A stretch of DNA of 64,000 bases from Escherichia coli. GTDB lineage: Bacteria; Pseudomonadota; Gammaproteobacteria; Enterobacterales; Enterobacteriaceae. The stretch is from assembly GCF_013122565.1 (NCBI RefSeq), contig NZ_CP053258.1, one strand, 5' to 3'. Below are positions 3,957-61,598 of the stretch, piece by piece (the first letter of the stretch is position 1; each line of letters opens with the position of its first letter). A program made the translations under genes and the position numbers. A model generated the notes under the pieces. That model was not told the DNA's origin and searched no databases. It saw only the letters and a list, made by a program, of their open reading frames with translations.

Positions 3957-4907
3957 ATGCGTGTGTTACTGGCACCGATGGAGGGAGTGCTTGACTCTCT
4001 GGTGCGTGAATTGCTGACCGAAGTTAACGACTACGATCTGTGCATCACCGAGTTCGTCCGCGTGGTGGATCAACTGCTGCCGGTAAAAGTTTTTCATCGC
4101 ATTTGCCCTGAGCTACAAAACGCCAGCCGGACACCATCCGGTACGCTGGTGCGCGTGCAGTTGTTGGGTCAGTTCCCACAATGGCTGGCAGAGAACGCCT
4201 CCCGTGCGGTGGAATTAGGTTCCTGGGGCGTGGATCTCAATTGCGGCTGCCCGTCGAAAACGGTTAACGGTAGCGGCGGCGGCGCGACGTTACTCAAAGA
4301 TCCTGAACTCATCTACCAGGGTGCAAAAGCGATGCGTGAAGCTGTACCGGCGCATTTGCCCGTCAGCGTGAAAGTGCGTCTGGGCTGGGACAGCGGTGAG
4401 AAGAAATTTGAAATCGCCGATGCGGTTCAACAGGCTGGCGCTACGGAGCTGGTGGTGCATGGGCGGACGAAAGAGCAGGGTTACCGCGCGGAGCATATTG
4501 ACTGGCAGGCGATTGGTGAGATTCGCCAGCGGCTGAATATTCCGGTGATTGCCAACGGTGAAATCTGGGACTGGCAGAGCGCGCAACAATGCATGGCGAT
4601 CAGCGGCTGCGACGCAGTGATGATTGGTCGCGGGGCGCTCAATATTCCCAACCTGAGCCGGGTAGTAAAATATAACGAACCGCGAATGCCGTGGCCGGAG
4701 GTGGTTGCTTTGCTGCAAAAATATACCCGTCTGGAAAAGCAGGGCGATACCGGGTTATATCACGTAGCGCGGATTAAACAGTGGTTGAGTTATTTGCGTA
4801 AAGAATACGCTGAAGCAACAGAATTATTTCAGCATGTTCGGGTGTTGAATAATTCCCCTGATATTGCAAGGGCTATTCAGGCAATTGATATCGATAAGCT
4901 GCGATAA
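3957..4907 (+). CDS. dusC: tRNA-dihydrouridine synthase C, 315 aa
   Basis: Start at ATG 3957 ([13 protein letters not shown]...), Dus-family TIM-barrel motifs (LAPMEGV, catalytic Cys in NCGCP); upstream in-frame extension in ORF track rejected. Confidence 0.9.
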
Positions 4908-5294
4908 TAGTGGAATCGCAGCTTATCAGAGACAATGAATCGCTTATTCAGCTTCATCATCTTGTTGCGCTCCTTTCATGAACTAAGCCATATATTGCCA
5001 CTGGCGCAAGGAGCGCGCAGGGGGAGGACAATCGCCTCCTCCCCCTGCACCCCCGGGCTCTGGCGAACAAAATCGCCGCTGCGCGGTACCTTCAGCTTAT
5101 CCCCTTCGGCTACCGGGTCGGGCGCGAGGTAACGTCCTTGTAAGACGCGCCCTCAGCCCACATCCATGTGGGCTGTCCCGGCCTTCGGGGAACGCTTCAG
5201 CGATTTTGACGCCACCAACACCGGAGCTGTTTGCAAATCAAGTACACAAAATATCTAGTTCCTGACCTGACAACTTATATGCCATATCTGATTT

Positions 5295-5378
5295 TTAAAA
5301 TATCATCTTAAATACGCCAGTCACCACCAGTAGCCCAATCAGGAAAATAATCAATACAGCCCAGAGTATAATTTTCAT
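5295..5378 (-). CDS. yohP: 27-aa small membrane peptide (MKIILWAVLIIFLIGLLVVTGVFKMIF)
   Basis: Short minus-strand ORF below the ORF-track size cutoff, single TM helix; matches my recollection of E. coli small protein YohP between dusC and mdtQ. Not verifiable here. Confidence 0.5.
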   Translation of the reverse strand: MKIILWAVLIIFLIGLLVVTGVFKMIF

Positions 5379-5601
5379 TGGCGTTCCTTTATTTGTGAGT
5401 GCTGAATAAGTATAGGAAAAAACGAAGCCCTTTGCCGTTATCCATAAACGATTAAGATAAATCGGAAGATATCATTCACTTAGTGTATATTTTTCTGGAT
5501 ATGTCGTTTTATTGCTACTGATGTATTGCCACGCGAAACTAAAAAATATATCGCAACACACGGTAATCTCCCCGCACCTTTTCTTACCTGATTATTCCCC
5601 C

Positions 5602-7038
5602 ATGAATCGTGATTCCTTTTATCCAGCCATCGCCTGTTTTCCGCTGTTACTGATGCTGGCCGGATGTGCGCCTATGCATGAAACCCGCCAGGCGTTAAGC
5701 CAGCAAACGCCCGCTGCACAAGTTGACACCGCATTACCCACGGCGCTGAAAAATGGTTGGCCAGACAGCCAATGGTGGCTGGAGTATCACGATAATCAAC
5801 TCACTTCATTAATTAACAATGCACTACAGAACGCACCGGATATGCAGGTGGCTGAACAGCGCATTCAGCTAGCTGAAGCCCAGGCGAAGGCAGTTGCTAC
5901 TCAGGATGGTCCGCAGATCGACTTTTCTGCGGATATGGAGCGGCAAAAAATGTCGGCAGAAGGGCTAATGGGGCCGTTTGCTCTGAACGATCCGGCCGCA
6001 GGTACGACCGGTCCGTGGTACACCAACGGAACTTTTGGCTTAACGGCGGGCTGGCATCTCGATATCTGGGGAAAGAATCGGGCGGAGGTTACTGCCCGCC
6101 TGGGTACGGTTAAAGCACGGGCGGCGGAACGCGAGCAAACCCGCCAATTGCTGGCTGGCAGCGTAGCCCGCCTGTACTGGGAGTGGCAAACCCAGGCGGC
6201 GTTAAACACGGTCTTGCAGCAAATAGAAAAAGAGCAGAACACCATTATCGCGACCGATCGCCAGCTATATCAGAACGGGATTACTTCTTCAGTTGAAGGT
6301 GTGGAAACCGATATTAATGCCAGCAAAACCCGGCAGCAGCTCAACGATGTCGCGGGGAAAATGAAAATTATTGAGGCACGGTTAAGCGCACTTACAAATC
6401 ACCAGACAAAGTCATTGAAGCTTAAACCGGTCGCGTTGCCGAAAGTGGCAAGCCAGCTTCCTGATGAACTGGGGTACTCCTTACTGGCCCGGCGGGCAGA
6501 TTTGCAGGCGGCGCACTGGTACGTTGAGTCATCGTTAAGCACCATTGATGCGGCGAAAGCGGCATTTTATCCTGACATCAACCTGATGGCCTTCCTGCAA
6601 CAGGATGCGTTGCACTTAAGCGATCTGTTCCGTCATTCCGCGCAGCAAATGGGCGTTACGGCAGGCCTGACGCTACCCATTTTCGATAGTGGTCGTCTTA
6701 ACGCAAACCTCGATATCGCAAAAGCCGAAAGCAACTTGTCTATCGCCAGCTACAACAAAGCAGTGGTTGAAGCGGTGAATGACGTGGCGCGGGCAGCCAG
6801 TCAGGTTCAGACACTGGCGGAGAAAAACCAGCATCAGGCGCAAATTGAGCGCGATGCCTTGCGTGTGGTAGGTCTTGCGCAGGCGCGCTTTAACGCGGGC
6901 ATCATTGCTGGTTCCCGTGTCAGCGAAGCCAGAATCCCGGCGCTGCGTGAGCGGGCCAATGGCCTGTTATTGCAAGGGCAGTGGCTGGATGCCTCCATTC
7001 AACTCACTGGTGCGTTGGGCGGGGGTTACAAACGCTGA
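5602..7038 (+). CDS. mdtQ: outer-membrane efflux lipoprotein (NodT/OMF family), intact 478-aa reading frame
   Basis: Start at ATG 5602 gives lipoprotein signal MNRDSFYPAIACFPLLLMLAGC (lipobox LAGC); OMF-family coiled-coil/beta-barrel repeats; uninterrupted ORF. Confidence 0.8.
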   Translation: MNRDSFYPAIACFPLLLMLAGCAPMHETRQALSQQTPAAQVDTALPTALKNGWPDSQWWLEYHDNQLTSLINNALQNAPDMQVAEQRIQLAEAQAKAVATQDGPQIDFSADMERQKMSAEGLMGPFALNDPAAGTTGPWYTNGTFGLTAGWHLDIWGKNRAEVTARLGTVKARAAEREQTRQLLAGSVARLYWEWQTQAALNTVLQQIEKEQNTIIATDRQLYQNGITSSVEGVETDINASKTRQQLNDVAGKMKIIEARLSALTNHQTKSLKLKPVALPKVASQLPDELGYSLLARRADLQAAHWYVESSLSTIDAAKAAFYPDINLMAFLQQDALHLSDLFRHSAQQMGVTAGLTLPIFDSGRLNANLDIAKAESNLSIASYNKAVVEAVNDVARAASQVQTLAEKNQHQAQIERDALRVVGLAQARFNAGIIAGSRVSEARIPALRERANGLLLQGQWLDASIQLTGALGGGYKR

Positions 7039-9305: not shown

Positions 9306-9478
9306 AAAGTTCTTTTGCGTTGCATTGCTGGCGTAAATGTCAGCAATGCAGCATTTCCTCACGATTCTCCTTTGACGATCGCACTTTTTGCTCGTTATGA
9401 TGGCGTCGCTAGCCTCAGTAAATCCTTACTCCGGCGGTGCGCAACCCGTGCGCGTGAACCACTATCTGAATGCTCATC

Positions 9479-10411
9479 ATGCCGAAATTTCGAGTTTCTT
9501 TATTTAGCCTGGCCCTTATGCTGGCTGTGCCTTTTGCACCGCAGGCCGTTGCGAAAACGGCAGCCGCTACCACCGCTTCACAACCGGAAATTGCCTCCGG
9601 TAGCGCGATGATTGTTGATCTGAATACTAACAAAGTGATCTATTCGAACCACCCGGATCTGGTGCGTCCGATTGCGTCTATCAGCAAATTAATGACCGCG
9701 ATGGTTGTGCTGGATGCACGACTGCCGCTGGATGAAAAACTAAAAGTGGATATCAGCCAGACGCCGGAGATGAAAGGGGTCTATTCGCGCGTACGACTGA
9801 ATAGCGAAATCAGCCGTAAAGATATGCTGTTGCTGGCGCTGATGTCTTCAGAAAACCGCGCGGCGGCAAGCCTTGCGCACCATTATCCCGGTGGTTACAA
9901 AGCCTTTATTAAGGCAATGAATGCGAAAGCGAAATCGCTCGGAATGAACAACACGCGCTTTGTTGAACCTACCGGATTGTCGGTGCATAACGTTTCAACT
10001 GCCCGTGACTTAACCAAACTGCTCATTGCCAGCAAACAATATCCGTTGATCGGTCAGTTAAGTACTACCCGGGAAGATATGGCAACCTTCTCTAACCCGA
10101 CGTATACGCTGCCGTTCCGCAATACTAATCATCTGGTGTATCGCGATAACTGGAATATCCAGCTAACCAAAACCGGCTTTACCAATGCGGCGGGCCATTG
10201 TCTGGTGATGCGTACGGTTATCAATAATAAACCGGTGGCGCTGGTAGTGATGGACGCGTTTGGCAAATATACCCATTTTGCCGATGCCAGCCGCCTGCGT
10301 ACCTGGATTGAAACCGGTAAAGTGATGCCTGTTCCGGCAGCAGCGTTGAGCTATAAAAAACAAAAAGCCGCCCAAATGGCGGCGGCGGGGCAGACGGCAC
10401 AGAACGATTAA
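9479..10411 (+). CDS. pbpG: D-alanyl-D-alanine endopeptidase PBP7, 310 aa
   Basis: Signal peptide [25 protein letters not shown], active-site SxxK (SISKLMT), SxN and KTG motifs seen. Confidence 0.9.
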
Positions 10412-10414
10412 GAG

Positions 10415-10600
10415 TAGGCAGGATAAGGCGTTTACGCCGCATCCGGCATTCGGAGCACAATGCCTGATGCGATGTTTGCGCATCTTATCAGGCCTACAAA
10501 CGTGACGCGTCCGTAGGCAGGATAAGGCGTTCACGCCGCATCCGGCATCCGGTGCACGCTGGCTGATAAGATGCTTGCGCATCTTATCAGGACTCCATCT
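10415..10600. repeat. cluster of REP (repetitive extragenic palindrome) units / BIME between convergent pbpG and dld
   Basis: Two copies of GTAGGCAGGATAAGGCGTTyACGCCGCATCCGGCA and two of the GCCTGATGCGAyGyTTGCGCATCTTATCAGG-type palindrome seen directly. Confidence 0.75.
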
Positions 10601-18046: not shown

Positions 18047-18778
18047 ATGAAGATGTTGCGCGATCCGCTGTTCTGGCTCATTGCTCTGTTTGTGGCACTG
18101 ATTTTCTGGCTGCCTTACAGCCAGCCGCTGTTTGCTGCCTTGTTCCCACAACTGCCACGACCCGTTTATCAGCAAGAAAGTTTTGCAGCTCTGGCACTGG
18201 CTCATTTCTGGCTGGTGGGAATTTCGAGTTTGTTTGCGGTGATCATTGGTACTGGTGCCGGAATTGCAGTCACTCGCCCGTGGGGCGCGGAATTTCGCCC
18301 ACTGGTGGAAACTATTGCCGCCGTTGGGCAGACTTTTCCGCCTGTCGCAGTGCTGGCGATTGCTGTTCCGGTGATCGGCTTTGGTCTGCAACCAGCGATT
18401 ATCGCCTTGATCCTGTACGGCGTGCTGCCCGTCCTGCAGGCGACACTTGCCGGGCTGGGAGCGATTGATGCCAGCGTGACAGAAGTTGCGAAGGGTATGG
18501 GAATGAGTCGTGGTCAGCGACTGCGTAAGGTCGAGCTACCGCTGGCGGCTCCGGTGATTCTGGCGGGCGTGCGAACTTCGGTGATTATCAACATTGGTAC
18601 GGCGACAATCGCCTCAACGGTAGGGGCCAGCACGCTGGGTACGCCCATCATCATCGGGCTTAGCGGATTTAATACCGCGTATGTGATCCAGGGGGCGTTA
18701 CTGGTGGCACTGGCGGCGATCATCGCAGACCGCCTGTTTGAAAGGCTGGTGCAGGCGCTTAGCCAGCACGCAAAATAA
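18047..18778 (+). CDS. yehW: ABC transporter permease YehW, 243 aa
   Basis: Polytopic permease with ABC transmembrane signature; 4 nt after yehX stop. Confidence 0.9.
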
Positions 18779-18866
18779 AGGTATAACCTGCGAGCATGAC
18801 GCCACCAATTCCGCCTAACGCCATAAACAGGAACAGGGCGATGACCCCAATTTTAGCTATGCGCAT
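18759..18866 (-). CDS. yohO: 35-aa small membrane protein ([35 protein letters not shown])
   Basis: Short minus-strand ORF not in ORF track; single TM helix; sequence matches my recollection of E. coli YohO. Its 3' end overlaps the yehW 3' end (convergent). Confidence 0.55.
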
Positions 18867-18925
18867 AATGCACTCCTTATGTTAACGAAAGGATTGTACA
18901 GTAAAGCGCATTTGTTAACGAATCA

Positions 18926-23423: not shown

Positions 23424-25424
23424 TCATCCTTTTTGCTGAAGCATGGGGAATAATTGTTCGCACAGCAAAACACCGTTATTCATTGCTTCTACCCGTGCCT
23501 CGCTTTCTGTATTACGAAATTGTCCCAACACATGTGCCAGCCGATAAAAAACCACCGCGGTGAGGTCATTCGCCAGCAACTCTGCCTGACCAATAGCACT
23601 CTGTTCCTGATAGCGCCAGCCGTTATGGAGCAGTTGAATAAGTAACGCCTGGCAGCGCATCAGCAACTGATGAGCAGTAGACGGCACAGGCAGAACGCTG
23701 GCAGAAGGTAGCGGTGCCACAGGCGCAGTTTCTGCGTCCAGCGCCCAGGCGCGGGTTTTTGTCATCATTACCCGTGGTTCCAGTGTCAATTGCCCATCAA
23801 CAAAACTGACAAAGCCAGAAACCAGACACACGGGGTCCTCTGTTTGTTGCAAAAGCGCCGCCATGCGTTCAACGGCATAAGGCGCGCTGGCTGAGGCTGG
23901 TAGGGATAACGTCAGCACATTATCTTCCCCTTCGCCGCTAATGACCTGCGCATCCAGTGTCTGGCGGCTGCTATCCCAACCAAGCGAAATACACTCCGCT
24001 ACCGGCAGAATAAATAAGTTATCGACCTGGTTGAGTGGTCGTATGCAGGCGGGGGGACGCTGGCGTAAATATTCCCGCAAAGCCACAATGCCCGGCTGGC
24101 GCAACGGCGCGCTCAACATTTGCCAGGCGTCTGGCGACAACGGCACAACGCTGCTTAAGCGGTTGCGGGTAGCTAACAGCAGCTCGCCATCGGCACTGCG
24201 TTTTGCTGCTTGTGAAACAATTTGCCCACCTGCCAGTGCGCCAGCCTGAAAACTAAACAGCCGACGTTTTGCCGCGGGAGCGTTTTCTTGTTCGCTTCTC
24301 GGCCAACTACGCGAAAGATGCAAAATACTGCCGGTGTCGGGATCGGTGAACCAGATGCGTAAACCATACTGCTCAATATCCTGCCAGCAACGCATACCTA
24401 AAGACACCAGCCGCAGATGATCAAGCTTTGCTTCTCCGGCAATGCCAGCGCCAACGACCGTGCGCCACGGCACAGGAGGAACTTCACCGATACTGTCGCG
24501 CCGGGCCATCTCTTGTGCGCAATTTAATCGACTGTTTAATGCCGCAAGCTGACGTAAGCATTCTCCGGCATGATAGTGGCTGGCGCGGGCGTGGAAGGCA
24601 TCAACGCTGGCGCGCAGTTGCCGTAGCGATTCACTCACCCATCGCCAGTTGCAGCGTTCCGCCGCCTGCTGTGCGCGGCTGAAAGCGGCCTCGTAATGGA
24701 TTGGCGGCTGGCTGATGCCGCCCAGCCATAATGCCTGACTTAATTGCTGAACATATTGACGACACGCGTTGCCCTCTTCGCTGGCAAACGGATCGTCAGA
24801 TGATGTGACGTGTTCGCTGCGCATCTGCCAGATTAAATGAGTAAATTCCGCTTGCTGAGTTTTTGCCTCGACGAAGGCCTGCACAGCCAGTACGACATGT
24901 TCGCAAAGTGTGCCGTCAATACAATCACAACGGGCGAAACGAATACTGCTGCGGGAATAAAAACGCACATCGCTCATCGGTAAGCGGGCAGAGGGAATTT
25001 CGCCCGGCGTACAGAACAACTCAATGGTGATGCCTTTAGCGACCAACGCCTGTGCGCGTTTGCGGGTGGCATCGGGAAGGGTAGCCAGTTCTTCCAGCCA
25101 GATTGCCGGATCCCACTCTTCTTCTTTTTCCGTGGGCTGAACGGTGGCACAAAGTCGTTGATAACTTAACACCAGCATAACGCGATGACGGCACATGCCG
25201 CTGGCCCCGCAGGTGCACTGAGCCTCTTTCAGTGCCTGACCGTTCGCCAGCTGGGTACGGACACCGTCACTGAAGGTGGCGATTAAAGCGCCGTTCTCAT
25301 GGCTGATTTCCGGGACGTTGCCATTTTCCAGTTCCTTAAGGCTGCGCTTAACAAAACCGGCATTGCTTAACGCCGTCAGTGCCTGCGGTGTCAGTTCTAA
25401 TAATTCCGGGCGTAGTGAATTCAT
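23424..25424 (-). CDS. yehQ: SWIM zinc-finger protein YehQ, about 666 aa with the chosen start
   Basis: Two CxCx(n)CxH SWIM motifs seen (CTCGASGMCRHRVMLV; CDCIDGTLCEHVVLAV). Start set at ATG 25424..25422, which overlaps the yehP TGA stop (ATGA); an upstream ATG at 25448 is an alternative. Confidence 0.75.
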   Translation of the reverse strand: MNSLRPELLELTPQALTALSNAGFVKRSLKELENGNVPEISHENGALIATFSDGVRTQLANGQALKEAQCTCGASGMCRHRVMLVLSYQRLCATVQPTEKEEEWDPAIWLEELATLPDATRKRAQALVAKGITIELFCTPGEIPSARLPMSDVRFYSRSSIRFARCDCIDGTLCEHVVLAVQAFVEAKTQQAEFTHLIWQMRSEHVTSSDDPFASEEGNACRQYVQQLSQALWLGGISQPPIHYEAAFSRAQQAAERCNWRWVSESLRQLRASVDAFHARASHYHAGECLRQLAALNSRLNCAQEMARRDSIGEVPPVPWRTVVGAGIAGEAKLDHLRLVSLGMRCWQDIEQYGLRIWFTDPDTGSILHLSRSWPRSEQENAPAAKRRLFSFQAGALAGGQIVSQAAKRSADGELLLATRNRLSSVVPLSPDAWQMLSAPLRQPGIVALREYLRQRPPACIRPLNQVDNLFILPVAECISLGWDSSRQTLDAQVISGEGEDNVLTLSLPASASAPYAVERMAALLQQTEDPVCLVSGFVSFVDGQLTLEPRVMMTKTRAWALDAETAPVAPLPSASVLPVPSTAHQLLMRCQALLIQLLHNGWRYQEQSAIGQAELLANDLTAVVFYRLAHVLGQFRNTESEARVEAMNNGVLLCEQLFPMLQQKG

Positions 25425-26557
25425 GACTGAAGATTCTCCGCAAGCCATGATGCCAGCTCGCCCGGTGTCATGGCGGCTATTTGTGCGCCGATATTAACCA
25501 GCGCCTGGGCCGTATCGTGGTCATAGCAGGGTGTTGCGTTGCTATCGAGCGCCGCCAGTCCCAGCACTTTGATGCCGCTCTGGACACACTTTTTCACCTG
25601 ATGCGTCAGCAATGATGATGAACCCCCTTCGTAAAAATCGCTCACGAGGATAATGACGCTTTTTGCTGGTTGTTCAATAAGTTGCCGACCATACTCCACG
25701 GCACTGGCGATATTGGTCCCGCCACCCAACTGTACTTTCATTAATAACTCTACCGGATCGGCAACGTCTGCCGTGAGATCAACGACGCTTGTGTCAAACG
25801 CCACCAGATGGGTACGAATGCCGGGTAACTGCCACAAACAGGCCGCCATCACCGCAGAGTGGATCACCGAATCGACCATCGAGCCGCTTTGATCAACCAG
25901 TAAGACCAGTTGCCATTGTTCGCTTTGGCGTTTAATGCGGCTGTTAAAGCGGGGGGATTCGATATACAACTTGCCGTGTTGCGGGTGCCAGTGTTGCAGG
26001 TTGGCGCGCAGAGTACTTTTGAAATCAAAGTTTCGCGCCAGTGGAATAAATGAGCGGCGACGGCGATCGCGGACACCAGAAAAAGCCTGACGAACCTCCT
26101 TTGCCAGTTGTGCCATAATTTCTTCCACAACCTGGCGCACTATCCGGCGGGCGGCAGCCAGTACTTCGGGATTCATCAGATGTTTGGTGTGCAAAACGGC
26201 GCGTAGCAGGCTTTCAGAAGGCTGCATACGTTCCAGCACGTCGAGATTTGTCACCACATCTTCAATGCCGTAGCGCAGTACGGCATCGCTTTCCAGCCGC
26301 TCAATCACCTGTTGCGGAAACAGCGTGTGAATACTGTTGATCCACTCAGGAGTGGTGAGATTTGAGCCACCTAATCCACCGGAGCGTTCACCACGCTGGA
26401 GCCGTTCAGGATCGCGCCCATACAGCCACTCCAGCGCGTGGTCTATCTGCCGGGCGTTGTCATCCAGCCCACAAAGCGTCGTTTCTGCCGCTTCGCCAAG
26501 AATTAATCGCCAGCGTTGTAGTTCACGGGTGGTCAGAAGATCGTTCAGTTCAGACAT
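25421..26557 (-). CDS. yehP: von Willebrand factor A (VWA) domain protein YehP, 378 aa
   Basis: MIDAS motif DQSGSM seen; start ATG 26557 (MSELNDLLTTRELQ...); 76-codon upstream extension in ORF track rejected; overlaps yehM 3' end by 8 nt. Confidence 0.85.
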   Translation of the reverse strand: MSELNDLLTTRELQRWRLILGEAAETTLCGLDDNARQIDHALEWLYGRDPERLQRGERSGGLGGSNLTTPEWINSIHTLFPQQVIERLESDAVLRYGIEDVVTNLDVLERMQPSESLLRAVLHTKHLMNPEVLAAARRIVRQVVEEIMAQLAKEVRQAFSGVRDRRRRSFIPLARNFDFKSTLRANLQHWHPQHGKLYIESPRFNSRIKRQSEQWQLVLLVDQSGSMVDSVIHSAVMAACLWQLPGIRTHLVAFDTSVVDLTADVADPVELLMKVQLGGGTNIASAVEYGRQLIEQPAKSVIILVSDFYEGGSSSLLTHQVKKCVQSGIKVLGLAALDSNATPCYDHDTAQALVNIGAQIAAMTPGELASWLAENLQS

Positions 26558-28829
26558 GGAAAACTCCCCAGTGTTGCAGCGATGCCAGTGCCTGCTGTTC
26601 GAGTTGTTGATGATGTGCAATGGCTTGTGGTGGACAATGCAACGGCATTTGCAGAGCCGAAACGGGAAGTTGCGCCAGTTGATAATGTTCAAGCACCTGA
26701 TGCGCCAGCGTCCCGCGTTCTCGTGGCGGTAGCCAGGCCATCGCCGCGCGTAAATCGGGCAGGGCATTGATAAAATCGGCATCACTTAGTTGATTTAAAT
26801 GACTGCTGAAACCGGCGATAAATGCCGGCTGACAAGCCAGTTGATGACGGGCTAATGCCAGCAAACCGTGCAGCGCCTCGCCGGATTGGGCCGGGGATAA
26901 CTGCGTCAGCATTGTCAGCGCCGCTTCGGCACTAGCGTTGGGATGTTCCAGACGCATCAGTGCGCCAAGAGTCGCGCCGCGATCCAGCGCCGGGGCATGA
27001 ATCGCCTGACTGCGGCGCTCCAGTAAGGCTACCGCCGCAGAAAGCGAAACGCCGGATAAGTTAACGCCGCTATGTAGATCGCGCAGGATATGGCAAAGCG
27101 CTTGCCAGCTATGCAGGTGAGCGTGAAACTCCTTTTCATCCGGTCTGCCGTTGGATTCACACAGCCACAGCGTGCGATCGATAGCCGCGCATAACGTCGT
27201 TTGTAATATCTGCGCGCCTTGCATACCGCTAATTTCATCCAGCCGCCATAAGGCATATAGCACTTCCAGCGCCTGGCCCATTTCGGCAAATTGATTTTCC
27301 TGGGCGATTAATAATGTGAGTTGTTCCAGTAATTGCTCACTAAAGCTCGCCAGGCCCGCTAACGCCGCCTGGCTAAGACATGCGGTAATGCTGCCGATTC
27401 CACCCGCGTCCAGCATATCGGCTTCTAATTTATTGCGTGCGGCTTCCTGGAGTGTTGCACCAAAGCAGGCGGCCTCAATCAATGCCGCATGCTGGCTAAG
27501 CGGGCGGGTTAATTTCCAGCGTTCTTCACCGTTGCCTGCAAGTGTCAGTGTACTTCCCTGCTGGCGTACAATCCCTGGGATCTCCAGTATTGCCAGCCGA
27601 TGTAACACCTGACTTTGCGCTAGTCCATTGGGGTTAAAGCGATTTAAGGTAAGCTGCGCCGGAAGAGAGATTCCGGTACGTTCCAGTTCGCAGGTGACAT
27701 CTTTTGGCAGAGGCGGTTGTGGCGTGGAGGGGGCAAGTTTACCGAATCCGTCACCCGCTAATGTGTCTATCAACGTTAGCAGAATCGGATCGGTATCGGG
27801 ATGAATAACTCCGCGATAGCTCCACGGCAACGGCGCGTTCAAGGCTTCTTTAATCAGCGAGCCTGCTATGGCATCCAGCCAGTCAGTGCGTAACGGTAGT
27901 GTATGACCGCGCAACTGTGCCAGCGCCATCACATGCAGATGAGCGGCAGCCATATCAGCGGTAGAAGCGGGCAATTTGTGCTGGCGCAAACGGGCAAGGA
28001 TAGTTTTTAGCAGTTGTTCACCGGCCTGCTGTAAGCCCCACTGCCAGCACCAGTTTTGCCAGACCGGGGCAGGCATACCGGAAAGGTATCCAGCCAGCAC
28101 ATCAAGGCGCTTTTCACTGTAGGGGGTGAGATAACAACCTGTAACGGCATCTGCCAGCGACGGCAATTCTGGCGTGTTAATTTCCTGCGGACATTCGCGC
28201 CACATTTTTGCCAGTGCCGGAGCGTGCCAGCCACCGCAGACAACTAACACGTCGCCATTATTTTGCTGCATCGCCCATCCAATCCAGCGGGCCATAAAGG
28301 CTTCGCGCTGACGATTGAGTGCATCGCCGAGGAAATCGCCCCGCAGTTGGGCAAAATAGTGCGCCAGTGCAGAGGGTAATGCAGTTCGCTGGCTTTCATC
28401 TTCGAACAAGTGATCCCACAGGGTATCGCTGTTATCCATGCGGGTGGCACGCAGCAGCAAGGTCTGGCTTTCCTCTTGCGTATCAGGCGAATCGTCCTCT
28501 TCTTCACTCTGTGCCCAGCAAGGCAAATCGATGAAGTAAGTTTGTGCCTGAATACGACGAGCGGCTTGTAGCGCCTGCCACTCCGGCGAAAATTCAGCAA
28601 ATGGCGTCCAGGCACCACGCCCGGGGGCTGCACCGTCCTGATACTGGCAATAACTGTAAATAGCTACCGGAAGCTGGTGGGCTAAAAACAGTTCGTCTAC
28701 CCGGTCATTAAAATCAGCCGGGCCTTCAATCAACACGTATCGTGGCCGCTGGCTTTCGATTAACGATTTCACCAGCCGGGCGCAGGCCGGACTATGATGC
28801 CGGATGCCGACAATTAACAGCTCGCTCAT
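26550..28829 (-). CDS. yehM: large uncharacterised protein YehM, 759 aa
   Basis: Start ATG 28829 (MSELLIVGIRHHSP...); no recognised catalytic motif; second gene of the yehLMPQ cluster. Confidence 0.8.
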   Translation of the reverse strand: MSELLIVGIRHHSPACARLVKSLIESQRPRYVLIEGPADFNDRVDELFLAHQLPVAIYSYCQYQDGAAPGRGAWTPFAEFSPEWQALQAARRIQAQTYFIDLPCWAQSEEEDDSPDTQEESQTLLLRATRMDNSDTLWDHLFEDESQRTALPSALAHYFAQLRGDFLGDALNRQREAFMARWIGWAMQQNNGDVLVVCGGWHAPALAKMWRECPQEINTPELPSLADAVTGCYLTPYSEKRLDVLAGYLSGMPAPVWQNWCWQWGLQQAGEQLLKTILARLRQHKLPASTADMAAAHLHVMALAQLRGHTLPLRTDWLDAIAGSLIKEALNAPLPWSYRGVIHPDTDPILLTLIDTLAGDGFGKLAPSTPQPPLPKDVTCELERTGISLPAQLTLNRFNPNGLAQSQVLHRLAILEIPGIVRQQGSTLTLAGNGEERWKLTRPLSQHAALIEAACFGATLQEAARNKLEADMLDAGGIGSITACLSQAALAGLASFSEQLLEQLTLLIAQENQFAEMGQALEVLYALWRLDEISGMQGAQILQTTLCAAIDRTLWLCESNGRPDEKEFHAHLHSWQALCHILRDLHSGVNLSGVSLSAAVALLERRSQAIHAPALDRGATLGALMRLEHPNASAEAALTMLTQLSPAQSGEALHGLLALARHQLACQPAFIAGFSSHLNQLSDADFINALPDLRAAMAWLPPRERGTLAHQVLEHYQLAQLPVSALQMPLHCPPQAIAHHQQLEQQALASLQHWGVFHV

Positions 28830-28839
28830 GCATCTTTCC

Positions 28840-29928
28840 TCACGGCAGGCGGTGGCGGGCTTGATAATAAGCCTGCCAGTGAGCTTCTTTATGTGTGGCG
28901 ACTCGCTGTTCGAAGTAACGGCGCAGACGAGCGCGATCTTCTTCGTTATCTTTGACGATGGTTCCGGCAATACAGTCCACCAGATCGGCTGGCTCACCTG
29001 CGCGATTCGCTAAAAACCAGGCGCGGACGCCCACAGCGTGGGCCACGTTCACGGCTTCAGCGGTGGACATAATCGCTGTTAGTGTATCCATTGACGTTTT
29101 CTTTTCGCCGTTGGCACGCAGATCGCGGAAGGTGCGGACCAGTAACTCCAGTACCGCGTCAGGCACTTTATGCGGAATACCGCTATGGGCCAGCAAACGC
29201 GCCGAAGCACTGGCGACCAGTTCCAGCTCCTGAGCGAAATCCATAATCGGAAAGACAGTTTCAAAATCGAAGCGACGCTTTAGCGCAGCACTCATCTCAT
29301 TGACGCCGCGATCGCGCGTATTGGCAGTGGCAATAATATTAAAGCCTTCCCGCGCATAGAGTTGACTGGCTTCACCAGTGAGTTCCGGCACCGTCATCAC
29401 CCTGTCAGAAAGCATACCTAACAGACAGTCTTGCACTTCCAGCGGTGTACGCGTTATCTCTTCAAAACGGACGATTTTGCCGTCGCGCATTCCCTGGTAA
29501 AGCGGGGCAGGGACCAGCGCTTCCGTTGATGGACCATGATTGATAAGCAGAGCGTAGTTCCAGCCGTACTTGATTTGATCTTCAGTGGTAGATGCGCCGC
29601 CCTGGATGGTTAACCCGGCATCGCCGCTAATAGCGGTTGCCAGTAATTCAGACAGGAGAGATTTTGCGGTGCCCGGTTCCCCCACCAACATCAAACCGCG
29701 CCCGGTGGCAAGAGTGACTAACATACGTTCGACAGCAGAGGGACTAATCACGACTTTACGGCTAATATTTTGCGCGCTATCGCCAAGGATAAAAGCACGT
29801 GCCGCAGGCAAACTTAACTGCCAACCGGGCGGGCAAGGTGCGTTATCATTTTGTTTTAATTTTGCCAGTTCATCGGCGTATAACACAGCGGCAGGCGGAC
29901 GCTGCAGATGATTATTCTGCGGTGACAT
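28840..29928 (-). CDS. yehL: MoxR-like AAA+ ATPase YehL, 362 aa
   Basis: Walker A LVGEPGTAKS and Walker B-like hydrophobic-DE segment seen; start ATG 29928 (MSPQNNHLQRPP...); 10-nt gap to yehM. Confidence 0.85.
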   Translation of the reverse strand: MSPQNNHLQRPPAAVLYADELAKLKQNDNAPCPPGWQLSLPAARAFILGDSAQNISRKVVISPSAVERMLVTLATGRGLMLVGEPGTAKSLLSELLATAISGDAGLTIQGGASTTEDQIKYGWNYALLINHGPSTEALVPAPLYQGMRDGKIVRFEEITRTPLEVQDCLLGMLSDRVMTVPELTGEASQLYAREGFNIIATANTRDRGVNEMSAALKRRFDFETVFPIMDFAQELELVASASARLLAHSGIPHKVPDAVLELLVRTFRDLRANGEKKTSMDTLTAIMSTAEAVNVAHAVGVRAWFLANRAGEPADLVDCIAGTIVKDNEEDRARLRRYFEQRVATHKEAHWQAYYQARHRLP

Positions 29929-30037
29929 ATATTCATCCCTGAAATGTATTAATGAAATAAACGATATTTTACGCGCAATAAATGTTTGGTGCATTAGTTG
30001 TTTGAGCGAAAAATATCTGGAAAGCAGATCACAGTAA

Positions 30038-30120
30038 ATAAAAAAACCTGCTGGTGAGGCAGGTTCTTTTATTTACTACAGTGACGCTAACTTGCTGATT
30101 GTGCAACATTTCGTACCAAC
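30038..30120 (-). ncRNA. orzO: candidate OrzO-like antitoxin sRNA, copy 1
   Basis: Minus-strand -10 (TATAAT, plus 30127..30132) and intrinsic terminator (hairpin 30047..30063 with U-tract); its 5' region contains GCAACATTTCGTACCAAC, which matches zorO-1 5' UTR 30271..30288 at 17/18 positions as a direct repeat, so the RNAs are complementary. Ends are approximate. Confidence 0.4.
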
Positions 30121-30149
30121 GAATAAATTATAACCATATCCACACTCCA

Positions 30150-30177
30150 TTGCAATTCAGTGAGTGAGATTTATAAT
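30150..30177 (+). promoter_or_regulatory. predicted sigma70 promoter of zorO copy 1 (TTGCAA-16-TATAAT)
   Basis: -35 and -10 hexamers read directly; implies a 5' UTR of about 175 nt. Confidence 0.45.
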
Positions 30178-30358
30178 CCTGCCCGTTGGGAGGTTGTGCC
30201 GGATCGGACCAATTTTAAGTCCTGGCTGCCGGACGGGTGGTGCCGCAGGCGGTGCCCTGATCCGGAGAGCAACGTTTCGTACCAACATACGTAAACCAGT
30301 ATCGACAGGCAGTGTAAGGGTAAGGTGCTGGTGTTGCGCTCCTTAATAAGGAGAGCGG

Positions 30359-30448
30359 ATGGACACGCTGACACAAAAGTTAACCGTGCTCATTGCCGTA
30401 CTGGAGTTATTAGTGGCTCTGTTACGGTTGATTGATTTGTTGAAGTAA
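30359..30448 (+). CDS. zorO: 29-aa hydrophobic type I toxin-like peptide MDTLTQKLTVLIAVLELLVALLRLIDLLK
   Basis: Short ORF with strong SD (AGGAG) and single TM helix; organisation (tandem duplication, long UTR, divergent sRNA) matches the zorO-orzO locus described in E. coli O157:H7. Gene name is from memory. Confidence 0.6.
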   Translation: MDTLTQKLTVLIAVLELLVALLRLIDLLK

Positions 30449-30471
30449 CGGGCAAATTGAAACGCATCTAA

Positions 30472-30496
30472 GGGGGAATACCGTTTCCCCCTTTAA
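30472..30496 (+). terminator. intrinsic terminator after zorO copy 1 (GGGGGAA-taccgt-TTCCCCC + TTT)
   Basis: Inverted repeat read directly. Confidence 0.5.
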
Positions 30497-30644
30497 TAAA
30501 ATGATTACATCTTCCATTAATTCACCCGATAACTTTTTTCATATTTATAAATTCATCGATTTTATAATCAACGTACTATTTGGCCGGGATGTGAATAATC
30601 ATGGTGGGCTATTGGCGAAAAATATCTGGAAAGTAGATCGCAGA

Positions 30645-30729
30645 AAATAAAAGAACCTGCTGGTGAGGCAGGTTCTTTTATTTACTACTTTGATGTTAAG
30701 TTACTGATAGTGCAACATGGCATCTCAAC
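30645..30729 (-). ncRNA. orzO: candidate OrzO-like antitoxin sRNA, copy 2
   Basis: Same architecture as copy 1 (terminator hairpin 30656..30672; -10 at plus 30736..30741); pairing segment TGCAACATGGCATCTCAAC differs from copy 1 and matches the zorO-2 UTR (30881..30899) with 2 mismatches. Confidence 0.35.
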
Positions 30730-30758
30730 GAACGAATTATAACCACCTCGGGGCCGTG

Positions 30759-30786
30759 TTGCAATTAAGATAATGAGATTTATAAT
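30759..30786 (+). promoter_or_regulatory. predicted sigma70 promoter of zorO copy 2 (TTGCAA-16-TATAAT)
   Basis: Hexamers read directly. Confidence 0.45.
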
Positions 30787-30967
30787 CCTGACTGTTGGGA
30801 AGTTGCGCCGGATCGAACCCATTTCAAGTCCTGGCTACCGGACGGGTGGTGCCGCAGGTAGTGCTCTGATCCGGAGTGCAACATGGCGACTCAACATACG
30901 TAAACCAGTATCGACAGGCAGTGTAAGGGTAAGGTGCTGGTGTTGCGCTCCTTAATAAGGAGAGCGG

Positions 30968-31057
30968 ATGGACACGCTGACAAAAAAGTTAACCGTGCTC
31001 ATTGCCGTACTGGAGTTATTAGTGGCTCTGTTACGGTTGATTGATTTGTTGAAGTAA
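30968..31057 (+). CDS. zorO: 29-aa hydrophobic type I toxin-like peptide, copy 2 (MDTLTKKLTVLIAVLELLVALLRLIDLLK; Q6K relative to copy 1)
   Basis: As copy 1; one amino-acid difference. Confidence 0.6.
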   Translation: MDTLTKKLTVLIAVLELLVALLRLIDLLK

Positions 31058-31080
31058 CGGGCAAATTGAAACGCATCTAA

Positions 31081-31105
31081 GGGGGAATACCGTTTCCCCC
31101 TTTAA
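31081..31105 (+). terminator. intrinsic terminator after zorO copy 2
   Basis: Same hairpin as copy 1. Confidence 0.5.
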
Positions 31106-31238
31106 TAAAGCTATACTCGTCATACTTCAAGTTGCATGTGCTGCGACTGCGTTCGTTCACCCCGGTCACTTACTTTAGTAAGCTCCTGGGAATTCACTCG
31201 CTTATCGCCTTCCTGCAACTTGAATTATTTAGAGTATA

Positions 31239-31541
31239 TTATTCTATTTCTTGGTTGAATATATTCTGTAGTTCGCGATTAAAAATTGCTATTACCGTTT
31301 CAGGTGATTCACCTCGTAATTTCCGCTCATCAATACACTCATCTCTTATATAAATCAACGCATCATTTATTTGCGGGTCGGCATCATTAAATGTTGGATG
31401 TAGCCGGAATCGCTCCAGCCGGTAGACGGAACCTGTAAATAATTCAGAGCATTTATGGATCTCAAGTCTGAAGGAAAACGGATCTTCAGGTACAGGGACC
31501 TCATAATCGTAAATAGCAACCAGCTCTTTTTGCACGATCAT
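31239..31541 (-). CDS. yehK: uncharacterised small protein YehK (100-aa ORF here)
   Basis: ORF track; sits immediately downstream of yehI (59-nt gap), same strand. Confidence 0.65.
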   Translation of the reverse strand: MIVQKELVAIYDYEVPVPEDPFSFRLEIHKCSELFTGSVYRLERFRLHPTFNDADPQINDALIYIRDECIDERKLRGESPETVIAIFNRELQNIFNQEIE

Positions 31542-31600
31542 CGCTTTCCCGTTGGTAAGTCGTGTTGAAAACGGGCAGTCGCATCACTGCCCGTTGTGTT

Positions 31601-34600: not shown

Positions 34601-35248
34601 TATCAACTCATTGGCGATTTCTGGTTTTTCCGGGAGGATCAGCGCAATAAAAGGGCGGCGAACTTTGGTTATTCCTGGCAGTGCGGCAATGAGTTTGTCG
34701 GCGCAACGCTGCCAGCAGCTTTCCTCTGCCAGAGAGAGATGCTTACGCAGTCGGAGATCGAATTCGTTATAGGTTTCTGATCGATAACCATAGCCATAGT
34801 CCTCGTTCTGATACTGCAATGTCACTACCAGAGGATCACTCTCATAACACCGCGCAATAAACTGGCGTGCAATCACCACCTCAGTCGCATATTCCAGCCC
34901 CTCTTGTTGGACGATTTCGTCGAGTAACTGTTGGCTGTCATTTTGCGCGATACAGGCTAGCGCCGCCATTGTCCGGGCCGGGATTGAGGGTTTGTGTTCG
35001 CCGATCAAGTTGATGGCCTGCGTGATGGCGGACTGCCACTCCAGTGAAAAATTCTCATAACGCCAGACAATGTTTTTTTTCTTCTCAGCTTTTTGTAGCA
35101 ATTCATCACCCAGTGTCTGAATGATGCTTTCAGTGATAACAGGCACTGGTTCGCCCGGCCAATTGCGATGGCTGAGTGGTGTTTTGCCTTTTTTATATTT
35201 CAGTTCCAGTTGGGCGTTATCCGCCAGCCACGGTAATTCCTTGTCCAT
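31601..35248 (-). CDS. yehI: giant MolR-like protein YehI (1215 aa), lacking the N-terminal WGR domain
   Basis: Shares conserved C-terminal blocks with the four upstream paralogs (FAQLFADYEIMPPFRQL, RRWSLADF...HPFTRLVTQRLIWGVY, LEYATEVVIA); begins at the LPWLADN motif that follows the WGR domain in the paralogs. Confidence 0.85.
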   Translation of the reverse strand: MDKELPWLADNAQLELKYKKGKTPLSHRNWPGEPVPVITESIIQTLGDELLQKAEKKKNIVWRYENFSLEWQSAITQAINLIGEHKPSIPARTMAALACIAQNDSQQLLDEIVQQEGLEYATEVVIARQFIARCYESDPLVVTLQYQNEDYGYGYRSETYNEFDLRLRKHLSLAEESCWQRCADKLIAALPGITKVRRPFIALILPEKPEIANELIGLECPRTHYHSKEWLKVVANDPTAVRKLDHYWSQDIFSDREASYMSHENHFGYAACAALLREQGLAAIPRLAMYAHKEDCGSLLVQINHPQVIRTLLLVADKNKPSLQRVAKYSKNFPHATLAALAELLALKEPPARPGYPIIEDKKLPAQQKARDEYWRTLLQTLMASQPQLAEEVMQWLSTQARAVLNSYLLAPPKPVIDSTDNSQMPEILVSPPWRGRKKKTSIPHFSLPDLTLAPQTYRSPNKHWTPEQQTAIDHFSAMSFDERLAKRGADTFLRELGFDVHSLEFNKRLLHGQLDAFDAQQLQEYTSIGLLRTYHAYQAKSKQYREEATKALLAQDSIALMGGWRTFQHGFYYGNKKRWGIWNLYLIAQMPHEMAVSCWQQIVEADFHYTGGEYLLSVLGTDALPGLNTAFARHPKEIFPLLIHFGATELALPVARVWRRFAAQRDLARQWILQWPEHTATALIPLVFTKSSDNSEAALLALRLLYEQGHGVLLQTVANRWDRADVWPALEQLLKQSQIEIYPARIPKAPDFWHPAMWSRPRLITNNQPVTDDALEIIGEMLRFTQGGRFYSGLEQLKSFCQPQTLAAFAWDLFTAWQQAGAPAKDNWAFLALSLFGDESTARDLTTQILAWPQEGKSARAVSGLNILTLMNNDMALIQLHHVSQRAKSSSLRENAAEFLQVVAENRGLSQEELADRLVPTLGLDDPQALIFDFGPRQFTVRFDENLNPVIFDQQNVRQKSVPRLRADDDQLKAPEALARLKGLKKDATQVSKNLLPRLEAALRTTRRWSLADFHSLFVNHPFTRLVTQRLIWGVYPANEPRRLLNAFRVAAEGEFCNAQDEPIDLPADALIGIAHPLEMTAEMRSEFAQLFADYEIMPPFRQLSRRTVLLTPDESTSNSLTRWEGKSATVGQLMGMRYKGWESGYEDAFVYDLGEYRLVLKFSPGFNHYNVDSKALMSFRSLRVYRDNKSVTFAELDVFDLSEALSAPDVIFH

Positions 35249-35257
35249 GCTCTTTCC

Positions 35258-61382: not shown

Positions 61383-61477
61383 TTTATTAACGCGATTGTA
61401 AAACTGCCGTTTTTCCTCGTTTACAACGCGTGCGCTGGACATTACCATCCTCCTCTGCGATTTATCATCGCAACCAA

Positions 61478-61598
61478 ACGACTCGGGGTGCCCTTCTGCG
61501 TGAAGGCTGAGAAATACCCGTATCACCTGATCTGGATAATGCCAGCGTAGGGAAGTCACGGACCACCAGGTCATTGCTTCTTCACGTTATGGCAGGAG
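61478..61598 (+). promoter_or_regulatory. TPP riboswitch (thi-box) in the thiM leader
   Basis: Contains GGGGTGCCCTTCTGCGTGAAGGCTGAGAAATACCCGTATCACCTGATCTGGATAATGCCAGCGTAGGGAA, the classic E. coli thiM aptamer, followed by the SD-sequestering platform ahead of ATG 61605. Confidence 0.85.

What the first reader, a model, noticed from the sequence alone, without database searches (positions are those of the whole stretch)
5295..5378. Two unannotated-size small membrane peptide genes (27 aa and 35 aa)
Short ORFs below the ORF-track threshold at 5295..5378 and 18759..18866 each encode a single hydrophobic helix with a plausible start codon. They match my recollection of the E. coli small proteins YohP and YohO. 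The second overlaps the 3' end of yehW convergently.
Basis: partly seen in the sequence, partly recalled or inferred. Interest (0 to 1): 0.3.

Follow-up and report, generated by a model that had tools for sequence, protein, structure and literature searches.

The report
Known small membrane genes yohP, yohO

Summary
Both ORFs exist exactly as described, on the minus strand: 5295..5378 (27 aa) and 18759..18866 (35 aa). Each has an ATG, a Shine-Dalgarno sequence and one hydrophobic helix.

- **Identity.** They are nucleotide-identical to RefSeq-annotated yohP and yohO. They pass the NCBIfam equivalog cut-offs (67.3 vs 58 bits; 80.1 vs 57 bits). Both are present in more than 5420 of 5426 complete E. 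coli genomes.
- **Chance.** Only four ORFs in the window pass an ATG + SD + hydrophobic-helix filter, against none in 30 shuffles. The other two are the ZorO/ZorP toxins.
- **Selection.** Across 80 Enterobacteriaceae loci, yohP is intact in 37 and yohO in 55. dN/dS is 0.019 and 0.148, and the annotated frame is the lowest of six in both cases.
- **Expression (literature).** Tagged YohP is seen in E. coli and Salmonella, where it is σS-dependent. YohO is seen by top-down mass spectrometry and Ribo-seq.
- **Function.** Published work shows YohP causes sublethal membrane depolarisation, ppGpp accumulation and nucleoid condensation. YohO has no known function.
- **One lead.** yohO overlaps the 3' end of the yehW-type permease gene convergently by 17-26 nt in all 62 loci examined, whatever the other neighbour is. 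This suggests, but does not show, a functional tie to the OsmF-YehYXW betaine transporter.

Verdict: confirmed, already known, low interest.

The parts
5295..5378 (-). yohP coding sequence (27 aa plus stop). It encodes a single-pass inner-membrane peptide with K2 and K24 flanking the helix, and with G15 and G21.
   Evidence: ORF. Identical to RefSeq yohP. NF011345 scores 67.3 bits against a cut-off of 58, and PF25659 scores 50.6 bits against 27. dN/dS is 0.019 across 37 loci.
5385..5389 (-). yohP Shine-Dalgarno core AAGGA, 7 nt before the ATG.
   Evidence: A purine-rich SD is kept in all 37 orthologous loci.
5409..5415 (-). Inferred yohP -10 promoter element CTATACT (C at -13 followed by TATACT), which is a sigma-S type.
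   Evidence: Sequence. CTAyACT is the only upstream block conserved across genera. Sigma-S dependence of the Salmonella orthologue is shown in PMC5437024. The assignment as the promoter in this window is an inference.
18759..18866 (-). yohO coding sequence (35 aa plus stop). It encodes a single-pass membrane peptide with a conserved [11 protein letters not shown] core.
   Evidence: ORF. Identical to RefSeq yohO. NF010225 scores 80.1 bits against a cut-off of 57. dN/dS is 0.148 across 55 loci.
18873..18878 (-). yohO Shine-Dalgarno AAGGAG, 7 nt before the ATG.
   Evidence: AGGAG is at least 90% conserved in 54 distinct upstream sequences.
18893..18898 (-). Inferred yohO -10 box: TACAAT here, TATAAT in most genera. 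It lies in the 59-nt mlrA-yohO spacer.
   Evidence: Conserved gTAtAaT block in the cross-genus alignment, kept also in loci that lack mlrA. Promoter function is inferred, not shown.
18759..18778 (.). 20-nt convergent overlap of the yohO and yehW coding regions.
   Evidence: An overlap of 17-26 nt is present in all 54 loci with a true yehW orthologue and in 8 further loci from Mangrovibacter and Shimwellia-type genomes.
18047..18778 (+). yehW, the last permease gene of the osmF-yehYXW ABC transporter operon. It is context and the candidate functional partner of yohO.
   Evidence: Annotation. Co-occurrence with yohO.

Best explanation
The two ORFs are the known E. coli genes yohP and yohO. Each is translated into a single-helix inner-membrane protein.

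YohP (27 aa). It is transcribed from its own short mRNA with a sigma-S-type -10 box, so it accumulates in stationary phase and under nutrient or oxygen limitation. It is inserted into the membrane post-translationally by SRP through SecYEG or YidC, or by mRNA targeting when SRP is inhibited. It dimerises through Gly15. At native stationary-phase levels it partly dissipates the membrane potential. That triggers the phage-shock response, ppGpp accumulation, reduced protein synthesis and nucleoid condensation, a state described as 'metabolic silencing'. These steps are shown in the literature for a protein of this exact sequence. What I show here is identity, conservation and the promoter motif.

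YohO (35 aa). It is expressed from its own conserved TATAAT-type promoter. It has no demonstrated function. My committed inference, at about 30% confidence, is that its invariant glycine-rich helix face ([11 protein letters not shown]) packs against the YehW/YehY permease of the OsmF-YehYXW betaine ABC transporter as a small accessory or regulatory subunit. yohO is inseparable from the 3' end of yehW in every genome examined.
For: Identity:
- Nucleotide-identical to RefSeq yohP and yohO, with the same neighbours.
- NCBIfam equivalog models are passed, as is Pfam YohP.
- Source names are 'protein YohP' and 'UPF0387 membrane protein YohO'.
- Present in 5421 and 5423 of 5426 complete E. coli genomes.

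Coding:
- 4 ORFs pass the filter against 0 in shuffles.
- yohP is intact in 37 of 37 loci with a hit and yohO in 55 of 55, each with an SD.
- For yohP, 24 of 26 third codon positions vary but only 1 of 26 second positions does, and dN/dS is 0.019. For yohO, dN/dS is 0.148. The annotated frame is the lowest of six in both.

Expression and mechanism of YohP:
- PMC12719787, PMC12542507, PMC7549839 and PMC5437024.
- The residues those papers single out (G15, G21, K24, IGLLVVTGV) lie in the stretch I find invariant across genera.
- The CTAyACT -10 box is conserved across genera.

YohO:
- Expression is supported by top-down MS and Ribo-seq.
- The yehW tie rests on an overlap of 17-26 nt in 54 of 54 loci. 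yohO is retained with yehW in 7 loci that lack mlrA.
- In 8 independently retrieved loci, the other neighbour is metG, an HTH_5 regulator or a TonB-dependent receptor, and the overlap is still 20 nt.
- No yohO is found where only yehW paralogues occur.
Against: Nothing argues against the identity.

YohP mechanism. The published phenotypes come mostly from premature plasmid expression in exponential phase. The deletion mutant has only mild phenotypes, and the authors list this as a limitation. yohP is absent from the syntenic dusC-mdtQ gap in 30 loci, including the E. albertii type strain, so it is dispensable in many relatives.

YohO-transporter idea. Physical overlap by itself enforces co-inheritance, so linkage is weak evidence of joint function. 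No interaction, co-regulation or phenotype data were found. The inferred yohO promoter looks sigma-70-like, whereas osmF-yehYXW is reported to be sigma-S dependent (from my own knowledge, not checked here).
Confidence: 0.97

Rival explanations
1. The ORFs are chance open frames, or the loci act only as non-coding RNAs. The Salmonella yohP transcript, for example, was first catalogued as the sRNA STnc1330.
For: Both ORFs are very short. yohP lies in a transcript once annotated as non-coding. The simple consensus scan found no minus-strand promoter.
Against: dN/dS is 0.019 and 0.148, with variation concentrated at third codon positions and the annotated frame best of six. The ORFs are intact in all 92 orthologous copies. 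The shuffle control gave zero. Tagged protein, MS and Ribo-seq evidence exists.
Confidence: 0.01
2. YohP is really an orphan or unrecognised type I toxin. On this view it is a membrane-depolarising peptide whose synthesis is held in check by an antisense RNA antitoxin, like the ZorO/OrzO pair found 25 kb away in the same window.
For: YohP depolarises the membrane and condenses the nucleoid as TisB, DinQ and LdrD do. The authors themselves draw the parallel. Its size and hydrophobicity are similar to ZorO.
Against: There is no Rfam antitoxin or other RNA family at the locus, whereas OrzO/OrzP are readily found by the same scan. Upstream of the -10 box nothing is conserved across genera. The leader is only about 25-30 nt, not the long structured 5' UTR typical of type I toxins. 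Native levels are high (about 1000 copies per cell) and non-lethal. The only antisense promoter-like match (5279..5306, +) is no more than the shuffles give.
Confidence: 0.07
3. YohO has no specific partner. It is a generic small membrane protein that perturbs or senses the bilayer or self-associates, as proposed for YohP and YncL. Its linkage to yehW would then be only a consequence of the physical overlap.
For: The authors suggest that many small membrane proteins may have similar generic effects. Glycine-rich faces also drive homo-oligomerisation. No partner has been reported.
Against: The linkage survives at least four different upstream contexts. The half of the helix nearer the C-terminus is nearly invariant while the N-terminal half varies, which suggests a specific packing surface. 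The family is confined to genomes that carry the orthologous transporter, among the loci examined.
Confidence: 0.35
4. The main role of the yohO locus is regulatory at the RNA level. On this view its transcript, lacking a terminator, reads antisense into yehW and modulates the 3' end of the osmF-yehYXW mRNA, and the peptide is secondary.
For: No intrinsic terminator-like hairpin occurs within 140 nt downstream of yohO in 54 of 55 loci. The convergent overlap is universal.
Against: Clear purifying selection acts on the amino-acid sequence outside the overlap: dN/dS is 0.141 for codons 2-28. The peptide is detected by MS. Rho-dependent termination was not assessed.
Confidence: 0.1

Closest known systems
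YohP (NCBIfam NF011345 / PRK14762 equivalog; Pfam PF25659), the E. coli K-12 small membrane protein
   Same: The 27-aa sequence is identical to the RefSeq protein, including the G15, G21, K24 and IGLLVVTGV features studied experimentally. The position between dusC and mdtQ is the same, and the sigma-S-type -10 box is present.
   Different: Nothing differs in the gene itself. In this window the neighbour mdtQ is an intact 478-codon ORF, whereas the K-12 copy is described as a pseudogene.
YohO (NCBIfam NF010225 / PRK13681 equivalog; UniProt UPF0387; Pfam PF27791 in the precomputed hits)
   Same: The 35-aa sequence is identical, as are the position between mlrA and yehW and the 20-nt overlap.
   Different: Nothing. 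The local Pfam-A copy does not contain PF27791, so only a meaningless sub-threshold B12D match was returned there.
Type I toxins such as TisB and ZorO
   Same: They are small single-helix inner-membrane peptides. YohP, like TisB, lowers the membrane potential and condenses the nucleoid.
   Different: No antisense antitoxin RNA or long structured leader was detected. YohP is abundant and non-lethal at native levels. The sequences are unrelated.
Small accessory subunits of membrane transporters (KdpF-KdpABC, AcrZ-AcrB, MgtS-MgtA, CydX-CydAB). The comparison rests on general knowledge and on the examples listed in PMC12719787.
   Same: YohO is a lineage-restricted single-helix peptide of under 50 aa, encoded right next to a transporter operon and co-inherited with it.
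   Different: No interaction or phenotype is known. yohO is convergent to, not co-transcribed with, the transporter genes. The resemblance is in genomic logic only.

Membership tests
YohP (NF011345 / PF25659) | Full-length match to the curated model above its cut-off. | tested here: met
   NF011345 scores 67.3 bits against a cut-off of 58, covering residues 1-27 of 27. PF25659 scores 50.6 bits against 27.
YohP (NF011345 / PF25659) | A 27-28 aa peptide with one transmembrane helix flanked by lysines, and with the Gly15 dimerisation residue. | tested here: met
   Sequence. K2, G15, G21 and K24 are all present. Residues 11-27 are invariant in all 37 loci and residues 9-10 nearly so. The role of G15 is described in PMC7549839.
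YohP (NF011345 / PF25659) | Genomic position between dusC and mdtQ. | tested here: met
   This arrangement is stated as the conserved one in PMC12719787.
YohP (NF011345 / PF25659) | Translated, located in the inner membrane, and induced in stationary phase by sigma-S. | not testable with these tools
   Literature only, for the identical sequence. A conserved sigma-S-type -10 motif is seen here.
YohO (NF010225 / UPF0387) | Full-length match to the curated model above its cut-off. | tested here: met
   NF010225 scores 80.1 bits against a cut-off of 57, covering residues 1-35 of 35.
YohO (NF010225 / UPF0387) | A 34-37 aa single-helix peptide with the [11 protein letters not shown] core. | tested here: met
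YohO (NF010225 / UPF0387) | Convergent overlap with the last permease gene of the osmF-yehYXW operon. | tested here: met
   The overlap is 20 nt here and 17-26 nt in all 62 other loci.
YohO (NF010225 / UPF0387) | The protein is actually made. | not testable with these tools
   Literature only: top-down MS in PMC12529367 and Ribo-seq in bioRxiv 10.1101/2020.05.05.079178.
Type I toxin-antitoxin system (considered for YohP) | An antisense RNA antitoxin encoded at the locus. | tested here: not met
   No RNA family was found at 4900..5650 even at E<=1, apart from chance-level hits. No conserved non-coding block is present beyond the -10 box and SD. The same Rfam scan found OrzO/OrzP elsewhere in the window. 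An undescribed antisense RNA cannot be fully excluded.
Type I toxin-antitoxin system (considered for YohP) | Membrane depolarisation by the peptide. | not testable with these tools
   Reported as sublethal depolarisation in PMC12719787 and PMC12542507.
Transporter accessory small subunit (considered for YohO) | Physical association with the transporter and an effect on its activity or stability. | not testable with these tools
   Only genomic co-inheritance is available.

The most novel reading that the evidence does not exclude
YohO may be a dedicated partner of the OsmF-YehYXW glycine-betaine ABC transporter, either as a single-helix accessory subunit or through antisense read-through into yehW. 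yohO overlaps the 3' end of the yehW-type permease gene in all 62 loci examined, despite at least four different neighbours on its other side. It keeps an invariant glycine-rich helix face. It has no terminator before entering yehW. I found no paper that proposes this.
Probability: 0.25. Interest if true: 0.4.

Novelty: already known. Interest (0 to 1): 0.08.

Why it matters
As a discovery it does not matter. Both genes are annotated in RefSeq, have curated family models, and YohP has a growing functional literature. The result is useful as a calibration point, because a reader working from raw sequence correctly picked out two genuine sub-50-codon genes, and simple tests confirm them cleanly. 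Those tests were an SD plus hydrophobic-helix filter checked against shuffles, and cross-genus dN/dS in six frames. The only forward-looking element is the strict yohO-yehW linkage. It gives a concrete, cheap experiment for a small protein that still has no known function.

Tried and rejected
I worked around this with an exhaustive HMMER search for YohO and a synteny-based genome scan seeded with Dld, which lies midway between the two genes.

2. Two Python calls failed on a file-name assumption and were repeated successfully.

3. The simple sigma-70 and terminator consensus scans found no minus-strand promoter or terminator for either gene. The cross-genus alignment was more informative.

4. 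My DusC marker protein was translated one base out of frame. It still located dusC by tblastn, but its identity percentages are meaningless and are not used.

5. A full-text search for 'YohO' mostly returned place names and surnames. A genomic SELEX paper lists a weak peak between yohO and yehW in a minor-sigma-factor table, without interpretation. A Mg-starvation small-protein study does not mention either gene. The supplement of the initiation-profiling study is not held.

6. I considered modelling a fused YehW-linker-YohO chain. I rejected it because the tool returns no inter-residue error or contact information, so an interface could not be judged.

7. I considered a possible MlrA-box resemblance (TGTACAAT at the yohO -10 box, from memory). 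I dropped it because TGTACA is not conserved outside Escherichia and Citrobacter, where other genera have CGTATAAT.

8. Type I toxin membership for YohP was considered and not adopted (see the membership test).

Full report
**Observation.** Reading the window directly shows both ORFs at the stated coordinates, on the minus strand. The first, 5295..5378, encodes MKIILWAVLIIFLIGLLVVTGVFKMIF. The second, 18759..18866, encodes [35 protein letters not shown].

Each begins with ATG and has a Shine-Dalgarno core 7 nt upstream (AAGGA and AAGGAG). Each contains one strongly hydrophobic 19-residue stretch, with Kyte-Doolittle means of 2.96 and 2.41. yohO overlaps the stop-proximal 20 nt of the plus-strand gene at 18047..18778.

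To ask whether this exceeds chance, I listed every ATG-started ORF of 20-50 codons in the window, which gave 533. I then required an SD core and a hydrophobic stretch of at least 2.4. Four ORFs pass, while 30 dinucleotide-preserving shuffles gave none. Two of the four are the ORFs in question. The other two are a tandem pair at 30359..30448 and 30968..31057, which turn out to be a different known system (see the asides below).

**Identity.** Megablast against 5426 complete E. coli genomes places both regions under RefSeq features named 'yohP: small membrane protein YohP' and 'yohO: protein YohO'. In two fetched records the annotated coordinates map exactly onto 5295..5378 and 18759..18866, with neighbours dusC/mdtQ and yehW/mlrA. 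The coding sequences are identical base for base.

- The peptides pass the curated NCBIfam equivalog models: NF011345 at 67.3 bits against a cut-off of 58, and NF010225 at 80.1 bits against 57.
- YohP also passes Pfam PF25659.
- The local Pfam copy has no YohO model, but precomputed hits name PF27791 UPF0387_membrane.
- An exact-sequence look-up returns the source names 'protein YohP' and 'UPF0387 membrane protein YohO ... YOHO_ECOLI'.
- The yohP core (5285..5445) is found in 5421 of 5426 genomes, and the yohO region in 5423.

**Independent evidence that they are protein-coding.** The peptides are too short for the homology tools. I therefore scanned one genome per species with Dld, whose gene lies midway between the two small genes, and took 10 kb on each side. 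This gave 80 loci from about 25 genera of Enterobacteriaceae.

tblastn found a yohP-like ORF in 37 loci and a yohO-like ORF in 55. Every copy is intact, has a start codon and is preceded by a purine-rich SD.

| Measure | yohP | yohO |
|---|---|---|
| Variable first codon positions | 10 of 26 | 20 of 33 |
| Variable second codon positions | 1 of 26 | 14 of 33 |
| Variable third codon positions | 24 of 26 | 30 of 33 |
| dN/dS, annotated frame | 0.019 | 0.148 |
| dN/dS, next-best of the other five frames | 0.141 | 0.306 |

For yohO, dN/dS is 0.141 when the part overlapping yehW is excluded. In both genes the next-best frame is the antisense frame that shares the wobble position.

YohP residues 11-27 (IFLIGLLVVTGVFKMIF) are invariant in all 37 loci, and residues 9-10 are nearly so. 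YohO keeps a [11 protein letters not shown] core, while the N-terminal half of its helix varies.

An exhaustive HMMER search with YohO of 1.84 billion representative proteins found only 17 hits. Many of them are obviously frameshifted or chimeric calls of the same gene, so the family is narrow.

**Transcription signals (sequence-based, function inferred).** Upstream of yohP, the only block conserved across genera besides the SD is CTAyACT, at window 5409..5415 (CTATACT). This is a -10 element with the C at -13 typical of sigma-S promoters, and it lies about 30 nt before the ATG. It fits the finding that the Salmonella orthologue, first catalogued as the 'sRNA' STnc1330, yields a 3xFLAG-tagged protein that is abundant in stationary phase and almost undetectable in an rpoS mutant (PMC5437024).

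Upstream of yohO, within the 59-nt spacer after the mlrA stop codon, a TATAAT-like box is conserved (TACAAT here, at 18893..18898). It is kept in loci that lack mlrA, so yohO probably has its own promoter.

No terminator-like hairpin follows yohO within 140 nt in 54 of 55 loci. Its transcript therefore probably runs antisense into yehW, unless Rho stops it.

**What the proteins do.** For YohP the mechanism comes from the literature, on a protein of the same sequence.

- Chromosomally SPA-tagged YohP rises from early to late stationary phase, in minimal medium and under oxygen limitation (PMC12719787).
- It is an integral inner-membrane protein, mostly N-out/C-in. It forms SDS-resistant dimers that need Gly15. 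It is targeted post-translationally by SRP to SecYEG or YidC (PMC7549839). When SRP is inhibited it is inserted by mRNA targeting instead (summarised).
- Its production lowers the membrane potential without killing the cell. It induces PspA/PspC, raises (p)ppGpp, lowers protein synthesis and condenses the nucleoid.
- The deletion mutant is more sensitive to ciprofloxacin and oxidative stress (PMC12719787 and PMC12542507).
- The authors caution that most effects were measured after premature expression.

My contribution is that the residues they identify as important sit in a stretch that does not change across roughly 20 genera while synonymous sites are near saturation. That argues for a specific helix-helix or helix-lipid interaction rather than generic hydrophobicity.

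For YohO I found evidence of expression but no functional study. It is detected by top-down mass spectrometry (PMC12529367) and shows Ribo-seq coverage in the correct frame (bioRxiv 10.1101/2020.05.05.079178). [quoted passage not shown]

**The yohO-yehW linkage.**
- In all 54 loci that carry a true YehW orthologue (at least 72% identity), yohO is present and overlaps its 3' end by 17, 20, 23 or 26 nt.
- In 7 of these loci mlrA is absent, so yohO follows yehW rather than mlrA.
- Loci that have only distant YehW paralogues (35-43% identity) have no yohO.
- Those loci were chosen by Dld synteny, so I also looked up the contigs encoding the two most divergent YohO relatives, from Mangrovibacter and Shimwellia.
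- In all 8 of those places the small gene overlaps by 20 nt the last permease gene of a four-gene OpuAC/BPD_transp_1/ABC_tran/BPD_transp_1 operon. The gene on the other side is metG, an HTH_5 regulator or a TonB-dependent receptor.

Physical overlap alone makes separation unlikely, so this is suggestive rather than decisive. My preferred reading, at roughly 30%, is that YohO is a small accessory or regulatory subunit of the OsmF-YehYXW transporter, in the manner of KdpF, AcrZ or MgtS. The rivals are a generic partner-less membrane peptide (about 35%) and a mainly antisense-RNA role (about 10%).

**Rejected readings.** A chance ORF or purely non-coding locus is excluded by the substitution pattern and by published protein detection.

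YohP as a type I toxin is attractive functionally, but the defining antisense antitoxin was not found. Rfam finds OrzO/OrzP elsewhere in the window and nothing credible at yohP. No conserved non-coding block exists beyond the -10 box and SD. The leader is short, and native levels are high and non-lethal.

**Verdict.** The finding is already known, and interest is low. The only part that may be new is the strict yohO-yehW association, which is a testable lead rather than a result.

**Asides.** These are listed separately under things noticed in passing:
- the zorO/zorP-orzO/orzP locus;
- a structured repeat downstream of yohP with a sub-threshold TwoAYGGAY match;
- the absence of yohP from the syntenic site in many genera, including a clean 414-nt gap in E. 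albertii;
- paired TTAACA motifs around the yohO -10 box;
- the unusually divergent 24-44 kb segment of the window.

Noticed in passing
window 30040..31057: There is a tandem type I toxin-antitoxin locus between yehK and yehL. Two 29-aa hydrophobic ORFs lie at 30359..30448 and 30968..31057 (+): MDTLTQKLTVLIAVLELLVALLRLIDLLK and a Q6K variant, with identical upstream 20 nt. Each is paired with an Rfam OrzO-P antitoxin RNA, at 30040..30113 and 30649..30722 (-), scoring 88.8 and 90.2 bits against a gathering score of 60. From memory this is the zorO-orzO / zorP-orzP system. RefSeq records label the ORFs at most as 'hypothetical protein'.
   Followed up: partly
window 5070..5225 (-): A structured repeat of about 140 nt lies on the yohP strand, starting about 70-85 nt after the yohP stop. 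It has a median of 3 copies per E. coli genome and a folding z-score of -3.19. It gives a sub-threshold match to Rfam TwoAYGGAY (26.2 bits against a gathering score of 43; E 0.03-0.11). One hairpin loop is an exact AYGGAY (ACAUGGAUGU) and the second is only partial (AAGGAC). Variation in this element explains why only 1995 genomes cover at least 80% of 5100-5600 although 5412 cover the yohP core. Whether it is a diverged TwoAYGGAY RNA is unresolved.
   Followed up: partly
L004 16253..16269 (E. albertii) and 29 other loci: yohP is absent from the syntenic site next to mdtQ in 30 loci that carry mdtQ. These include the E. albertii type strain, Klebsiella, Kluyvera, Raoultella, Pseudocitrobacter, Leclercia and some Citrobacter. 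In E. albertii the whole segment matching window 5023..5436 (repeat, yohP and its promoter) is missing and is replaced by about 17 nt. This contrasts with near-invariance of the protein where it is present. I could not check whether a copy sits elsewhere in those genomes.
   Followed up: partly
window 18880..18885 and 18913..18918 (-): Two copies of (C/T)(G/A)TTAACA flank the inferred yohO -10 box, one in the -35/spacer region and one at the start of the leader. Both are conserved across genera (TTAACA at 90% or more upstream, about 70-90% downstream). They could be an operator for an unidentified regulator, or simply the promoter and initial transcribed sequence. This is unexplained.
   Followed up: no
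window 24000..44000: This segment (yehI to yehQ, including the zor-orz locus) is only about 93-97% identical to the best of 5426 complete E. coli genomes, and only one genome covers 80% of it. By contrast, the yohP and yohO regions are at least 99.6% identical to many genomes. The window is therefore mosaic in its divergence.
   Followed up: no
window 5602..7038 (+): mdtQ is an intact 478-codon ORF here and in strain PSUO2. The K-12 copy next to yohP is described as a pseudogene in PMC12719787.
   Followed up: no
window 9394..9474, 10417..10593, 61474..61570 (+): There are other Rfam matches above the gathering score. A Peptidase-S11 RNA motif lies just upstream of the ORF at 9470..10411, which is pbpG by position from my recollection of the K-12 map. 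Two adjacent naRNA4 (REP-derived) elements are present, and so is a TPP riboswitch.
   Followed up: no
L067-L082 (Kosakonia, Phytobacter, some Enterobacter): In these loci an ATG sits immediately upstream of the codon aligned with the E. coli start, which is TTG or ATG there. YohP is therefore probably 28 aa (ML.. or MM..). In L067 (Kosakonia sacchari) the stop codon is lost, giving a 55-codon ORF.
   Followed up: no
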